Shown one piece after another: positions 1,734 to 4,508 of a stretch of DNA of 51,956 bases. The notes beneath the pieces are model-generated. The model did no database searches. It saw only the letters and a program-made list of their open reading frames with translations, and was not told the DNA's origin. The translations under genes and the position numbers were made by a program. Positions within the stretch are counted from its first letter, which is position 1. Each line of letters starts with the position of its first letter. Origin of the DNA: Thermoplasmata archaeon (GTDB lineage Archaea; Thermoplasmatota; Thermoplasmata; Lutacidiplasmatales; UBA184); NCBI GenBank assembly GCA_028864975.1, contig JAGWLG010000026.1, forward strand, positions 1-51,956, written 5' to 3'.

Positions 1734-1740
1734 TTAAATA
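1734..1740 (+). promoter_or_regulatory. Putative TATA box of the RHH/ftsZ-like unit
   Basis: TTAAATA in an AT-rich patch of a GC-rich genome, 75 bp upstream of ATG 1815. Confidence 0.5.
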
Positions 1741-1759
1741 GGACTTTCGCTCTAAACCG

Positions 1760-1802
1760 TGTCGGACGTGTTCGACAAACCCTCACTGGGTTTGTTCGAC
1801 AA
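1760..1802 (+). promoter_or_regulatory. Candidate operator: TGTTCGACAA direct repeat flanking an inverted repeat
   Basis: TGTTCGACAA at 1769-1778 and 1793-1802; ACAAACCC-N5-GGGTTTGT at 1775-1795; degenerate TGTCGGAC at 1760-1767. Confidence 0.5.
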
Positions 1803-1814
1803 CCGAGGAAAGCG

Positions 1815-2279
1815 ATGGAGGCGGCGAAGGAAGAGGAACGGGTCGGGGTACGGTGCTCCCGACGCGAGCTCCAATTCCTCGACTCTTTCGTGGTCAGCGG
1901 GGAGTTCCGGACGCGCTCGGAGCTGATCCGAGAGGCGCTCAAGGACTTCCTCGCCCGCCGCGCCCGCGAAGTACCCGAAGCCCCGGCGACCACCCAACCC
2001 CGGACCCACACGGCCCCCGTACAGGGGAACGCGGCGGGCTCCTTCCGACCGGAGGAGCTCGAGCTGCTGACCGAGTACGCGGAGCTCGTGCTGAACGGTG
2101 CCTCCGTAGGGGACGCCCTTGCCGCCATCGTGCGGCAGGGGATCCCGATGGAGAAGGTCCGGACGGTGGTCGCCGAGCAGCGGGCGCTCGTGCGCGACTC
2201 GGCCGAACGACGGACCAAGGTGGAGAACGCCGGGCGAACCTCGCAGGAGCTCGAGCGTCAGGGATACCTGGGTCCGTAG
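1815..2279 (+). CDS. Ribbon-helix-helix (CopG/CdrS-like) transcriptional regulator, probably tandem RHH
   Basis: ERVGVRCSRRELQFLDSFVVSGEFRTRSELIREALKDFL fits the RHH pattern; a second RHH-like segment is SFRPEELELLTEYAELVLNGASVGDALAAIVRQG. Start moved from 1473 to ATG 1815. Confidence 0.8.
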   Translation: MEAAKEEERVGVRCSRRELQFLDSFVVSGEFRTRSELIREALKDFLARRAREVPEAPATTQPRTHTAPVQGNAAGSFRPEELELLTEYAELVLNGASVGDALAAIVRQGIPMEKVRTVVAEQRALVRDSAERRTKVENAGRTSQELERQGYLGP

Positions 2280-2333
2280 CGAGGAGGAAGGAGGGGGCGA
2301 TGTCGAGCGCACGTCCGGAGTGGGGTGGCCCGA

Positions 2334-3278
2334 ATGAAGGAGTCCGAGGTCCAAGAGCGACAGATCGCCGGTAGCGTGCGCACGAGCCCGCCGGAGGCGG
2401 CATCCGCCGACTTCCGCCTAGGCCGTGAAGCACGGTTCCTCCTGGTCGCCGTGGGCGGGGGCGCGATCCGCGTCGTCCGCTCCGCGGCCCGCCAGGGGAT
2501 GCGTTATGTGGAGACCGTCGCCATCAACGGGGACGACCGGGTCGTCGAGGCGATCGACTTCCACCGCCGCGTGCGCGTCGCCCTCCCCCAGGACGGGTCG
2601 GTCGACGACGCCGGGCTCCCGCTTTGCCAACCTCTCCCGCATCTCCAGGGCGACCTGGACCGCATCTTCGAGGGTTCCACCTTCGTCACGATCGTCGCAA
2701 GCCTCGGCGGAGAAGCGGGGACAGAGGTCCTTCCCTCCGTCCTTGACGCGGCCGCGCGCCACGCGCCCTTCCTCTCGGTCTTCCTGATGAAGCCGTTCGC
2801 CTGCGAGGAGGAGCGCCGCCTTAGGGCCGAGCACGCTCTCGAGGCCGTGAAGGCCCAGGGGGAGTTCGCCCACCGCGTGACCGCGAGCAACGTGACGCTT
2901 CGGGTCCTCGACAACGAGTCCGCCTACCGGACCCAGGCGCGAAGGCCGTTCAACCAGCTCTGCCAGCTCTGGGGCGACGTGATCGCCTCGCACGTCCACG
3001 AGCGCTACGTCCTCCCCGCCGAGTCGGCGTTGGAAGAATACCAGCTCTCGCGCGAGGTGCTGGCGCCGATCAACCGCCCGCCCGAGGGCCCGGTCCCGCC
3101 GACGCCGCTCCCCCCGATCCCGGCCGGGCTCTCCCCCATGCCCGAGGCGCTCCCGGCCATCCCCGTGGTCGCGCGTCTCGAGCCCACCCACGAGATCTCG
3201 TCGGGCCCCGAGCTGGAGATCCACTTCGAGATCGGCGCCGACGCGCCCGCGTCCCCTCCGCGCCCTCATCTCGTGTGA
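2334..3278 (+). CDS. Divergent FtsZ/tubulin-like protein (N-terminal GTPase-like domain only, Pro-rich tail)
   Basis: ARFLLVAVGGGA..ETVAINGD and EGSTFVTIVASLGGEAGTEVLPSV..KPFACEEERRLRAE align by eye with FtsZ VIGVGGGG..FIAVNTD and GADMVFITAGMGGGTGTGAAPV..KPFxFEGxxRxxxA. ATG 2334 has an SD-like GGGGTG upstream; GTG 2325 is an alternative start. Confidence 0.75.
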   Translation: MKESEVQERQIAGSVRTSPPEAASADFRLGREARFLLVAVGGGAIRVVRSAARQGMRYVETVAINGDDRVVEAIDFHRRVRVALPQDGSVDDAGLPLCQPLPHLQGDLDRIFEGSTFVTIVASLGGEAGTEVLPSVLDAAARHAPFLSVFLMKPFACEEERRLRAEHALEAVKAQGEFAHRVTASNVTLRVLDNESAYRTQARRPFNQLCQLWGDVIASHVHERYVLPAESALEEYQLSREVLAPINRPPEGPVPPTPLPPIPAGLSPMPEALPAIPVVARLEPTHEISSGPELEIHFEIGADAPASPPRPHLV

Positions 3279-3372: not shown

Positions 3373-3813
3373 TCACGGGCGGAGCATTCGGAGGAAGGAA
3401 GAGGCTGTCACCGGACGGATGCGCGGTCTTGCCGGGGCCAGTCCGTCGTCATGAGTGATGACGTGGGTCGCCCCATGGGTGATGCCGGTGGCCGCGACGA
3501 TGGCATCGGGAAGGGCGAGCCCGAACTCGGCCCGCAAACTCCCGGCAAGCTCCGCGGTCCTCCGGTCGACGTCCAGGACTCTGAGCCCGCGGGAGCCGTA
3601 GAGTCTTCGGAGGAGGCTGTCCCGGGCCAGCCCGTCGTTCGTCGCATCGTACCCTGCGCAGAGCTCGGCGACGGTCACGACCGAGGTGATCCCGTCGAAC
3701 TCCGCGGCGTCGACACGCCGCAGAACCTCCGATGAGGCCTCCAGGAACACCTCCTCGCGATTGAGGACGTTAAGGAAGATGTTCGTGTCGAGCACCGCGA
3801 CGATCCCACTCAC
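3373..3813 (-). CDS. vapC: PIN-domain toxin (VapC family)
   Basis: [28 protein letters not shown] and VITHD motifs; GTG start with GGAGG upstream. Confidence 0.9.
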
Positions 3814-4039
3814 GGCGGACCCTCCTTTGGAACTCGAGAGAGGACTCCTTCCAGGGTCGGGAGGACAGGAGGGCCTCGACGATGCCTCCCCTGGCCGCCT
3901 TTCTCCCAGTGAACTTGTCCCCTTCGACCTCGAAGACGACCTTGTCCCCCTCCTGGAGGTGCAGGGCCTCCCGGATCTCTTTCGGGAGCGTGATCTGGCC
4001 CTTGCTCGTCAGGGAGCCTACGGCGACCTCCGTCGACAT
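3770..4039 (-). CDS. vapB: AbrB/MazE/SpoVT-family antitoxin
   Basis: [31 protein letters not shown] signature; directly upstream of and overlapping vapC by 44 nt. Start moved to ATG 4039. Confidence 0.9.
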
Positions 4040-4337: not shown

Positions 4338-4508
4338 ATGAGCGCGAAGGGGAAGGTCCTGGCCGCCCTGGTCGGGATCGGAGTGCCCGCGGTTCTGCTC
4401 GGGGTCGCTATCGTCTTCTTCTCGTCGAACCCGCTCGCCGTGATCGCCACGATCACAGCGATGATCGGTGGTGGGACCTATCTTCTCTCCTACCAAGAAC
4501 ACGAGTGA
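4338..4508 (+). CDS. Small two-TM membrane protein
   Basis: 56 aa, two hydrophobic helices, GC3-rich codons; GAAAGTCATATAG lies about 30 bp upstream, supporting ATG 4338 over 4311. Confidence 0.7.
   Translation: MSAKGKVLAALVGIGVPAVLLGVAIVFFSSNPLAVIATITAMIGGGTYLLSYQEHE

What the first reader, a model, noticed from the sequence alone, without database searches (positions are those of the whole stretch)
1815..3278. cdrS-ftsZ2-like operon whose FtsZ is a truncated, apparently GTPase-dead pseudo-FtsZ
Seen: an RHH gene followed 54 bp later by a 314-aa protein aligning with the FtsZ N-terminal domain. T1 is VGGGA, the T3 GxGAG loop is unrecognisable, the tubulin signature GGGTGTG is GGEAGTE, no T7 NxDxxD is visible, and the C-terminal activation domain is replaced by a Pro-rich linker and a short ELEIHFEIG peptide. 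The frame is intact with normal codon usage. Known: haloarchaeal cdrS (RHH) is co-transcribed with ftsZ2; T4 binds GTP phosphates and T7 drives hydrolysis in filaments. Inference: an FtsZ2 descendant repurposed as a filament cap/inhibitor, scaffold or membrane-tether adaptor - an undescribed archaeal cytoskeletal regulator module.
Basis: partly seen in the sequence, partly recalled or inferred. Interest (0 to 1): 0.82.

Follow-up and report, generated by a model that had tools for sequence, protein, structure and literature searches.

The report
Half-FtsZ with decayed GTP pocket
A soil-type Thermoplasmata archaeon carries a conserved gene pair, a DNA-binding regulator followed by a cell-division protein FtsZ reduced to its GTP-binding half. 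In this genus the phosphate-binding loops have also decayed while the gene stays under selection, so it probably works without normal GTP binding.

Summary
An RHH gene (1815-2279) lies 54 bp before a 314-aa gene (2334-3278) that folds as the FtsZ N-terminal domain plus helix H7. A Pro-rich linker and a short acidic C-terminal peptide follow. The T4 signature reads GGEAGTE, T3 is lost, and T7 and the C-terminal domain are absent.

- The truncation is not recent decay. It defines a sharply bounded family (21 clusters at 50% identity) found in nearly all sampled genomes of one Thermoplasmata family, always behind the same RHH gene. A 56-aa two-helix membrane protein gene usually follows; here it sits at 4338-4508, displaced by a vapBC-like pair.
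- Most family members keep near-canonical T1, T3, T4 and T5 loops. Only the subclade holding this genus lost T3 and T4. Core dN/dS is 0.16-0.21, so it is not a pseudogene.
- Loss of GTP binding is inferred from sequence, not measured.
- The genome also has two FtsZ1-type genes and a separate RHH plus full-length FtsZ2-like locus. FtsZ2 ancestry is compatible (AU p 0.5, shared VLDN motif) but unproven.

The likely role is a non-polymerising FtsZ-end binder or tethered adaptor. This is inference.

The scan met this half-FtsZ module at least seven times on other DNA. I found no paper describing it.

The parts
1734..1740 (+). TATA-like box TTAAATA of the operon promoter
   Evidence: A TTTAAGTA or TTAAATA box lies about 28 nt before the conserved GTGTTCGACAA in all 18 aligned upstream regions. 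The sequence was read.
1768..1802 (+). Conserved leader element. It holds GTGTTCGACAA (1768-1778), a second TTCGACAA (1795-1802) and the inverted repeat ACAAACCC/GGGTTTGT (1776-1783 / 1789-1796). It is a candidate RHH operator and/or leaderless start.
   Evidence: The element is conserved across the family. In relatives the GTG is the in-frame leaderless start (MFDK...). In this genus it is out of frame with the RHH ATG (14 nt instead of 12), yet it is identical in three genomes.
1815..2279 (+). RHH DNA-binding protein, 154 aa. It has RHH 1 (residues 9-52), a disordered linker, a second helix pair (79-108) and a long C-terminal helix (112-148).
   Evidence: Weak sequence hits: Pfam RHH_1 19 bits, VapB 21 bits, NCBIfam CdrS model 21.5 bits. 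AF2 model. Orthologue directly upstream of the half-FtsZ in 19 of 19 loci. dN/dS for RHH 1 is 0.04-0.20. An internal-repeat test by hhalign was not significant.
2334..3278 (+). Half-FtsZ gene (314 aa plus stop): FtsZ N-terminal nucleotide-binding domain and H7, no C-terminal domain
   Evidence: Identity and fold. Family. Core dN/dS 0.16-0.21.
2706..2726 (+). Degenerate tubulin signature (T4): G125 G126 E127 A128 G129 T130 E131
   Evidence: Aligned to GGGTGTG of M. tuberculosis FtsZ. The family consensus is GGG[ST]GTG, with G127 in 95% and G131 in 100% of the 82 more distant members.
3069..3203 (+). Pro-rich disordered linker (residues 246-290)
   Evidence: Low pLDDT and no secondary structure. 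dN/dS 0.44-0.68.
3210..3236 (+). Conserved C-terminal peptide ELEIHFEIG (family consensus E[AV]ELTFE[VI]; E295 and E299 nearly invariant)
   Evidence: It lacks the GID motif of archaeal FtsZ tails (PMC8178401).
3373..4039 (-). Inserted vapBC-like pair: PIN-domain gene (3373-3813) and AbrB/SpoVT-like gene (3770-4039). It separates the half-FtsZ from the tiny membrane-protein gene. It is context, not part of the module.
   Evidence: Pfam PIN 70 bits. The AbrB-like call rests on my reading of the sequence only; Pfam gave no hit on the frame I submitted. The pair is absent from the same gap in G003.
4338..4508 (+). Tiny two-helix membrane protein, 56 aa, the third gene of the module in relatives
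   Evidence: Single copy in 22 of 24 genomes of the family. It lies 45-110 nt downstream of the half-FtsZ in 13 of 19 loci, but 1.06 kb away here.

Best explanation
The window holds a member of a conserved Thermoplasmata module. The module has three genes: an RHH regulator, a half-FtsZ (FtsZ N-terminal domain plus H7, a disordered Pro-rich linker and a conserved acidic-hydrophobic tail peptide), and a tiny two-helix membrane protein.

The half-FtsZ keeps the nucleotide-bearing 'top' face of FtsZ. It lacks the T7 loop and the whole 'bottom' face. It therefore cannot extend a protofilament and cannot activate GTP hydrolysis in a neighbouring subunit.

The most likely role is a non-polymerising binder of FtsZ filament ends or subunits, acting as a cap or modulator. 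Its tail peptide would hold it to a membrane partner, possibly the tiny membrane protein. The RHH protein would control expression through the TTCGACAA repeats at the promoter.

In this genus and its nearest relatives the phosphate-contacting loops T3 and T4 have been replaced (G127E, G131E), while base/ribose-side residues and the fold are kept under purifying selection. The protein has probably become a nucleotide-independent pseudo-GTPase version of that regulator.

What is shown: the architecture, the conservation, the synteny, the motif loss and the selection. What is inferred: loss of GTP binding, FtsZ binding, tethering and RHH autoregulation.
For: - FtsZ N-domain homology and fold, with the C-terminal domain and T7 absent.
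- A sharply bounded family (21 clusters at E<1e-30, all 321 aa or shorter, then a drop to 120 bits).
- Strong matches (E<1e-20) in 22 of the 24 other sampled genomes of the same GTDB family.
- The RHH gene lies upstream in 19 of 19 loci. The tiny membrane gene is found in 22 of 24 genomes and is adjacent in most.
- The family consensus keeps T1, T3, T4, T5 and T6.
- In the window protein 19 of 85 family-conserved columns are changed, concentrated in T3 (77, 83, 95, 99, 103, 104, 106) and T4 (127, 131). N65, D67, P154, F155, E158, R161, R162, D193, N194 and E230 are kept.
- Core dN/dS is 0.16-0.21, against 0.06-0.11 for FtsZ1a, FtsZ1b and the FtsZ2-like gene in the same genome pair.
- The last Gly of T4 changed to Glu in other half-FtsZ lineages as well (L089 GGRTGTE, L095 GGGTGSE), so the family tolerates loss of the canonical pocket.
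- Two FtsZ1-type genes, an FtsZ2-like gene and SepF are present in the genome as possible partners.
- From my own knowledge, not tested here: FtsZ variants with an intact top face and a defective bottom face poison assembly at substoichiometric levels by capping.
Against: - No binding, localisation or expression data exist.
- The acidic substitutions in T4 could repel the acidic T7 loop of a partner FtsZ, so the top-face interaction may be lost rather than made constitutive.
- The tail peptide lacks the GID motif used by archaeal FtsZ to bind SepF. No partner is identified.
- One 99%-complete Thermoplasmata genome (G035) has a half-FtsZ plus RHH but no full-length FtsZ. The wider half-FtsZ group therefore does not always need a canonical FtsZ to act on.
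- In this genus the module looks loosened. The tiny gene is displaced by more than 1 kb, the RHH leaderless start is out of frame, the tail peptide is altered, and dN/dS is two to three times that of the FtsZ genes.
Confidence: 0.42

Rival explanations
1. The protein still binds a guanine nucleotide, or another nucleotide or ligand, through an atypical pocket. It then works like the rest of the half-FtsZ family, and the T3/T4 changes only retune affinity or lock one state.
For: T1 GGG, N65, D67, the T5 residues P154/F155/E158/R161/R162 and the T6 residues D193/N194 are all retained. G125, G126 and G129 of T4 are invariant. The core is under purifying selection.
Against: Side chains at two glycines of the tubulin signature (G127E, G131E), plus loss of T3, remove the backbone-amide cradle for the phosphates. 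This rests on established FtsZ/tubulin structural knowledge and was not tested here. The same columns are 95-100% Gly in the 82 more distant family members.
Confidence: 0.2
2. The half-FtsZ acts independently of FtsZ filaments. It could be a membrane-tethered scaffold or adaptor working with the tiny membrane protein, or a partner of the RHH protein in DNA-related positioning.
For: G035 carries a half-FtsZ plus RHH but no full-length FtsZ. The three genes are tightly and exclusively linked. The tail peptide differs from FtsZ tails.
Against: The module is chromosomal, single-copy and vertically conserved, not plasmid-like. A protein without a bottom face cannot form a cytomotive filament. All family f1 genomes searched also have three full-length FtsZ genes.
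Confidence: 0.23
3. In this genus the gene is a functionally relaxed relic on its way to loss. The motif decay is drift after the original GTP-dependent function became dispensable.
For: dN/dS over the whole gene is 0.24-0.31, against 0.06-0.11 for the FtsZ genes. The tail peptide dN/dS is about 0.75-1.0 on only 12 codons. Operon order is disrupted and the RHH start is remodelled. The gene and the tiny gene were not found in congeneric G001, which is 85% complete.
Against: The frame is intact with GC3 of 0.90. Core dN/dS is 0.16-0.21 at dS of 0.55-0.69 across three genomes that all keep GGEAGTE. The RHH partner is 85-88% identical between these genomes. E127 recurs in a second subclade, which suggests a tolerated or favoured state rather than random decay.
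Confidence: 0.15

Closest known systems
cdrS-ftsZ2 operon of Halobacteria and other Euryarchaeota (Darnell 2020, PMC7439475; Liao 2021, PMC8406309)
   Same: A small RHH gene lies directly upstream of, and co-oriented with, an FtsZ-family gene. The RHH gives weak hits to the NCBIfam CdrS model and to Haloferax CdrS (23 bits). The T6 motif VLDN is shared with FtsZ2 rather than FtsZ1. A clade of all RHH-linked FtsZ types including Haloferax FtsZ2 is not rejected (p-AU 0.51).
   Different: The FtsZ partner lacks T7, the C-terminal domain and the GID tail. The RHH is 154 aa with a second helix pair and a long C-terminal helix, against about 60 aa for CdrS. It scores 21.5 bits against a cut-off of 100. 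A tiny membrane-protein gene belongs to the module. The same genome has a separate RHH plus full-length FtsZ2-like locus.
Half-FtsZ / RHH / tiny-membrane-protein modules noted earlier by this scan in other Thermoplasmata (e1-720335, e1-1519591, e1-2800086, e1-1479835, e1-2802124, e1-2889163, e1-3052334)
   Same: Same architecture, same gene order and same taxonomic class. I re-derived the family, the synteny and the third gene independently here.
   Different: This genus has lost the T3 and T4 phosphate loops, changed the tail peptide, moved the tiny gene more than 1 kb away and put the RHH leaderless start out of frame.
Truncated FtsZ paralogues of Hyphomicrobiales (Agrobacterium FtsZ1 and FtsZ3; bioRxiv 10.1101/2025.09.29.679267, bioRxiv 10.1101/412759)
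   Same: These are extra FtsZ copies that lack parts of the canonical protein. They are proposed to tune division rather than drive it. Overexpressing FtsZ1 inhibits division.
   Different: They are bacterial and arose independently. The truncation mainly removes the linker and tail peptide (FtsZ1) or part of the GTPase domain (FtsZ3). There is no RHH partner and no membrane-protein partner.
FtsZL1 / Tubulin_2 family (Makarova and Koonin 2010, PMC2875224)
   Same: A tubulin-superfamily protein without the FtsZ_C or Tubulin_C domain, found in some archaea.
   Different: There is no Pfam Tubulin_2 (PF13809) match at E<=1. The operon context is different (vWA, GTPase and OmpA genes there). The present family nests within FtsZ, apart from the CetZ outgroup.
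Protein inhibitors that cap FtsZ filaments (B. subtilis MciZ, PDB 4U39) and engineered bottom-face FtsZ mutants
   Same: The proposed mode of action is to occupy one longitudinal interface so that the filament cannot grow.
   Different: MciZ is an unrelated 40-aa peptide. The mutants are laboratory constructs. The comparison is functional only and rests on my own knowledge, not on a test here.

Membership tests
FtsZ (TIGR00065; Pfam Tubulin + FtsZ_C) | N-terminal Rossmann-type GTPase domain of the tubulin/FtsZ fold | tested here: met
   PDB FtsZ at E 1.4e-6. The AF2 model gives only FtsZ among the listed top Foldseek hits, at E about 1e-11 with about 200 aligned columns. The Pfam score of 22 bits is below the gathering score of 33.
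FtsZ (TIGR00065; Pfam Tubulin + FtsZ_C) | Tubulin signature GGGTG[ST]G (T4) and the T3 loop that contact the phosphates | tested here: not met
   GGEAGTE stands opposite GGGTGTG. T3 is replaced.
FtsZ (TIGR00065; Pfam Tubulin + FtsZ_C) | T7 synergy loop NxDxxD | tested here: not met
   The aligned stretch is LPAESALEEYQL. AF2 continues H7 as a helix to residue 243.
FtsZ (TIGR00065; Pfam Tubulin + FtsZ_C) | C-terminal (FtsZ_C) globular domain | tested here: not met
   No PF12327 hit. Residues 246-314 are disordered. TIGR00065 scores 29.5 bits against a cut-off of 295.
FtsZ (TIGR00065; Pfam Tubulin + FtsZ_C) | Archaeal C-terminal GID peptide that binds SepF | tested here: not met
   The tail reads ELEIHFEIG. 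The FtsZ1 paralogues of the same genome end in GGIDQVS and ADIDHVR. The motif is taken from PMC8178401.
FtsZ (TIGR00065; Pfam Tubulin + FtsZ_C) | GTP binding, GTPase activity and polymerisation | not testable with these tools
   These need biochemistry.
cdrS-ftsZ2 operon | RHH gene directly upstream of an FtsZ-family gene on the same strand | tested here: met
   The gap is 54 nt. The arrangement is conserved in 19 of 19 relatives' loci.
cdrS-ftsZ2 operon | The RHH is an orthologue of CdrS | tested here: inconclusive
   NF058555 gives 21.5 bits against a cut-off of 100. Haloferax CdrS gives 23 bits. The protein has a different length and extra domains.
cdrS-ftsZ2 operon | The FtsZ gene belongs to the FtsZ2 clade | tested here: inconclusive
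   Its position in the tree is unresolved. A constrained FtsZ2 clade is not rejected (p-AU 0.51). The VLDN T6 motif is shared with FtsZ2. A separate RHH plus full-length FtsZ locus exists on C119.
FtsZL1 (Pfam Tubulin_2, PF13809) | Match to the Tubulin_2 profile | tested here: not met
   No hit at E<=1.
CetZ | Groups with the CetZ clade | tested here: not met
   The three Haloferax CetZ sequences form a clade apart (100 SH-aLRT). All half-FtsZ sequences lie on the FtsZ side.
Thermoplasmata half-FtsZ module (defined by this scan, not published) | About 300 aa: N-domain, H7, linker and tail peptide, with an RHH gene upstream and a tiny two-helix membrane-protein gene downstream | tested here: met
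   In the window the tiny gene is 1.06 kb downstream, behind an inserted vapBC-like pair.
TubZ/TubR or ParMRC-type partition cassette | A polymerising NTPase plus a centromere-binding adaptor on a mobile replicon | tested here: not met
   The context is chromosomal (FEN1, PAC2 nearby). The module is single-copy and vertically conserved. The protein has no bottom polymerisation face.

The most novel reading that the evidence does not exclude
Half-FtsZ proteins are a class-wide, undescribed family of archaeal cytoskeletal regulators, built as natural 'top-face-only' FtsZ subunits that cap or nucleate FtsZ filaments at the membrane. In this genus the family has evolved into a true pseudo-GTPase, in which Glu side chains in T4 replace the nucleotide phosphates and give a constitutive, nucleotide-free cap.
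Probability: 0.15. Interest if true: 0.85.

Novelty: new variant of a known kind. Interest (0 to 1): 0.66.

Why it matters
Archaeal FtsZ-based division has very few known regulators: SepF, CdrS, the PRC-barrel proteins and CdpA. A conserved, naturally occurring FtsZ that keeps only the nucleotide face would be a ready-made tool for studying filament polarity, capping and treadmilling in archaea.

The family also offers a natural comparison. Most members have intact GTP loops, while this subclade has decayed loops under selection. That contrast lets one test directly whether nucleotide binding is needed for the function. It also shows that Thermoplasmata carry four or more FtsZ-family genes with distinct architectures, which current FtsZ1/FtsZ2/CetZ schemes do not cover.

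Tried and rejected
1. **Recent truncation or assembly error.** Rejected. Orthologues of 294-333 aa exist in 19 relatives, no longer form appears among the profile hits, and the signature is identical in three genomes.
2. **FtsZL1 / Tubulin_2.** No profile match.
3. **CetZ.** Excluded by the tree.
4. **Telling FtsZ1 from FtsZ2 by PDB scores.** Uninformative: both canonical copies score about 360 bits to M. jannaschii FtsZ1. This was solved by fetching Haloferax FtsZ1, FtsZ2 and CetZ through a degenerate DNA pattern for the published FtsZ2 tail peptide.
6. **Internal repeat in the RHH protein.** The hhalign test was not significant (E 0.13). The AF2 model shows two helix pairs but no paired ribbons (pTM 0.41), so 'tandem RHH' stays an inference for this orthologue group.
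7. **vapBC homologues in the G003 gap.** None were found there, so the insertions differ between congeners.
8. **Bacterial promoter and terminator scan.** Nothing useful.
9. **Coordinates of the AF2 model.** They are not available to scripts, so I could not check where E127 and E131 point.
Full report
**What is there.**

The window is about 68% GC and archaeal. FEN1, a PAC2 proteasome chaperone and other housekeeping genes lie nearby. On the + strand an ORF at 1815-2279 encodes a 154-aa protein with weak ribbon-helix-helix hits: RHH_1 19 bits, VapB 21 bits and the NCBIfam CdrS model 21.5 bits. After 54 nt, an ATG at 2334 opens a 314-aa ORF that ends at 3278.

This second protein matches FtsZ only over its N-terminal domain:
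- Pfam Tubulin gives 22 bits, below the gathering score of 33.
- TIGR00065 gives 29.5 bits.
- M. tuberculosis FtsZ matches at E 1.4e-6 over residues 36-173.

That alignment places GGEAGTE opposite the tubulin signature GGGTGTG. An AlphaFold2 model built on 95 homologues has a mean pLDDT of 84.6. It shows a Rossmann-type domain (33-200), a long helix H7 (206-243) and then no structure. In Foldseek the top PDB hits are all FtsZ, with about 200 aligned columns. GC3 in frame is 0.90.

**It is a family, not an accident.**

A word-indexed search found 95 clusters (90% identity) of 272-326 aa. All named ones come from Thermoplasmata metagenome genomes, and one is named Candidatus Lutacidiplasmatales. 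A profile search of 1.8 billion representatives found only 21 clusters at E<1e-30. None is longer than 321 aa, and the next hits drop to 120 bits.

In whole genomes, strong matches (E<1e-20) occur in 22 of the 24 other sampled genomes of the same GTDB family. Other families of the order give only FtsZ-level hits. A homologue of the RHH protein lies directly upstream on the same strand in 19 of 19 loci with enough flank.

Following a lead from earlier notes of this scan, I looked for a third gene. A 54-65-aa protein with two hydrophobic helices and a conserved FSSNPL...YL.SY.EHE pattern lies 45-110 nt downstream in 13 of 19 loci. It is single-copy in 22 of 24 genomes of the family. In the window it sits at 4338-4508, 1.06 kb downstream. 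A PIN-domain gene and an AbrB-like gene on the opposite strand fill the gap. Congeneric genome G003 has a gap of similar length without those genes.

**What is special to this genus.**

The family consensus keeps near-canonical nucleotide loops:
- T1: AVGGGA
- T3: DTGGSPxVGG
- T4: SLGGG[ST]GTG
- T5: KPFxCEGERR
- T6: VLDNE

The whole family lacks T7 and the C-terminal domain. It ends in a Pro-rich linker and the peptide E[AV]ELTFE[VI].

The window's clade (P0003-P0006) has GGEAGTE and no T3. Its neighbours show intermediate states: GGG[SA]GTE in P0007-9, and GGETGAG with T1 GGAA in P0010-13. I counted 85 columns that are at least 85% conserved in the 82 more distant members. Nineteen of them differ in the window protein.
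- The non-conservative changes cluster in T3 and the start of H3 (77, 83, 95, 99, 103, 104, 106) and in T4 (127, 131).
- N65, D67, P154, F155, E158, R161, R162, D193, N194 and E230 are kept.

The phosphate side of the pocket has therefore been rebuilt while the base/ribose side and the fold remain. The last Gly of T4 also became Glu in two unrelated half-FtsZ lineages (L089 GGRTGTE, L095 GGGTGSE).

**Selection.**

I compared the three congeneric genomes by Nei-Gojobori.
- Half-FtsZ core (residues 30-245): dN/dS 0.16-0.21 at dS 0.55-0.69.
- Linker: 0.44-0.68.
- The 12-codon tail peptide: about 0.75-1.0, too short to interpret.
- For the pair window versus G002: FtsZ1a 0.06, FtsZ1b 0.08 and the FtsZ2-like gene 0.11.

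The gene is constrained, but less so than the division genes.

**Other FtsZ genes and ancestry.**

The genome (3.6 Mb, 89.6% complete) has three more tubulin-family genes:
- two canonical 380-aa FtsZ genes without an RHH upstream;
- a divergent 342-aa FtsZ on contig C119, preceded by a 136-aa tandem-RHH gene.

SepF is also present.

I fetched Haloferax cdrL-cdrS-ftsZ2, FtsZ1 and three CetZ genes as named references. I then built a tree of 89 N-domains.
- All canonical Thermoplasmata FtsZ, including both copies in this genome, join Haloferax FtsZ1 (99 SH-aLRT).
- The RHH-linked FtsZ of about 350 aa from other Thermoplasmata families joins Haloferax FtsZ2 (86).
- The C119 type and the half-FtsZ groups sit on long, unresolved branches inside FtsZ and outside CetZ.

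Across 41 genomes an RHH gene precedes every half-FtsZ and every FtsZ2-type gene examined, with four exceptions. Two were not testable (L012 and L040 have too little upstream flank) and two had no hit (L049 and L098). It never precedes an FtsZ1-type gene.

Half-FtsZ genes of 255-320 aa with their own RHH of 120-143 aa occur in most other families of the class and in metagenome contigs.

Two constrained-tree tests gave these results:
- Holding all half-FtsZ together fits slightly better than the free quick tree (p-AU 0.64).
- Holding all RHH-linked types together with Haloferax FtsZ2 is not rejected (p-AU 0.51).

The T6 motif VLDN is shared by FtsZ2 and the half-FtsZ groups, whereas FtsZ1 has PND or QND.

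I conclude that the window module is an old paralogue of the RHH-FtsZ2 cassette. This is plausible but not proven. The C119 locus is the better cdrS-ftsZ2 equivalent in this genome. The C119 FtsZ itself has lost the second T7 aspartate (NVDLAH) and has no C-terminal tail.

**Regulatory region.**

Eighteen aligned upstream regions share a TATA-like box. About 28 nt downstream lies GTGTTCGACAA (window 1734-1740 and 1768-1778). Several regions, including the window, have a second TTCGACAA (1795-1802). In the window an inverted repeat spans the two copies.

In most relatives the GTG is an in-frame leaderless start (MFDK...). In this genus 14 nt rather than 12 nt separate the element from the RHH ATG at 1815, so the two are out of frame. 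In G003 the GTG frame stops just before the ATG. Yet the element is identical in all three genomes. That argues for a DNA- or RNA-level role, for example as an RHH operator at the transcription start.

**The RHH protein.**

AlphaFold2 (pLDDT 78.7, pTM 0.41) gives one RHH unit (9-52), a disordered linker, a second helix pair (79-108) and a long helix (112-148). A profile test for an internal repeat was not significant. The RHH partners of the FtsZ2-type genes and of the other half-FtsZ groups are visibly tandem RHH proteins.

**Mechanism.**

In FtsZ and tubulin filaments the nucleotide face of one subunit meets the T7 loop and C-terminal domain of the next. This is established structural knowledge. 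A protein with only the nucleotide face cannot continue a filament or activate hydrolysis. It could still occupy the T7 face of a filament end or of a free subunit.

With a long disordered linker, a conserved tail peptide and a dedicated tiny membrane protein, the simplest model is a tethered end-binder or modulator of FtsZ. The RHH would set its expression. In this genus that activity would have become independent of nucleotide.

Several facts weigh against this model.
- The tail lacks the GID motif by which archaeal FtsZ binds SepF (PMC8178401).
- Acidic side chains in T4 might repel the acidic T7 loop.
- A 99%-complete genome, G035, has a half-FtsZ plus RHH but no full-length FtsZ.
- This genus shows signs of loosened constraint.

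I therefore give the cap/adaptor model about 0.4. The rivals are retained atypical nucleotide binding, an FtsZ-independent scaffold and a relic in decay.

**Literature and earlier notes.**

Full-text searches found the cdrS-ftsZ2 papers, the FtsZL1/Tubulin_2 paper, the FtsZ/tubulin evolution paper and work on truncated FtsZ paralogues in Hyphomicrobiales. None describes an archaeal FtsZ lacking the C-terminal domain.

The scan itself has reported the same module on other DNA at least seven times. My independent tests agree with those notes on architecture and synteny. They disagree with the idea that the half-FtsZ simply occupies the ftsZ2 slot, because this genome holds a separate RHH plus FtsZ2-like locus.

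Noticed in passing
window 3373-4039 (- strand): A vapBC-like pair (PIN-domain gene 3373-3813; AbrB/SpoVT-like gene 3770-4039, overlapping by 44 nt) sits between the half-FtsZ and the tiny membrane-protein gene. Congeneric G003 has a gap of similar size (about 1.2 kb) without these genes and without clear ORFs.
   Followed up: partly
window 1759-1926 (+), and L009: In this genus the conserved leaderless GTG start of the RHH gene (MFDK...) is out of frame with the RHH ATG at 1815. It opens a short upstream ORF instead: 55 codons here, and a shorter one in G003 ending in TAG just before the ATG.
   Followed up: partly
window 2283-2374 (+): A strong GGAGG-rich stretch (2283-2297) precedes an ATG at 2300. 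That ATG opens a 24-codon ORF which overlaps the half-FtsZ start in another frame. It may be a coupling element or chance.
   Followed up: no
own genome contig C119, L029:198-1683 (-): This is a second RHH plus FtsZ module: a 136-aa tandem RHH and a 342-aa full-length but divergent FtsZ. T7 reads NVDLAH (second Asp lost), T4 reads GGGTGSA, and there is no C-terminal tail. The same features hold across the whole GTDB family.
   Followed up: partly
L001, L002 and relatives: Both canonical FtsZ genes of the sampled Thermoplasmata group with Haloferax FtsZ1. This suggests a lineage-specific FtsZ1 duplication, with the RHH-linked gene as FtsZ2.
   Followed up: partly
L063:128-2427 (-), L067:1063-3341 (+): In a sister family of the order the operon is RHH, then an FtsZ2-type gene (349-352 aa), then a very divergent 281-288-aa FtsZ-like gene directly downstream.
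   Followed up: no
G035: L076/L122 and L123: This 99%-complete 1.4-Mb Thermoplasmata genome has no full-length FtsZ by TIGR00065 or PF00091. It has only a 255-aa half-FtsZ with intact GTP loops and an RHH upstream, plus one 38-bit hit.
   Followed up: partly
L089:1231-2034 (-), L095:1420-2265 (+): Half-FtsZ genes of two other families show independent decay of the T4 signature (GGRTGTE and GGGTGSE).
   Followed up: no
P0115, P0116, P0119, P0122: The profile search returned proteins of 731-840 aa, each matching the profile in two stretches. P0115 and P0116, whose sequences I read, hold two complete FtsZ units in tandem. Their origin is unknown.
   Followed up: no
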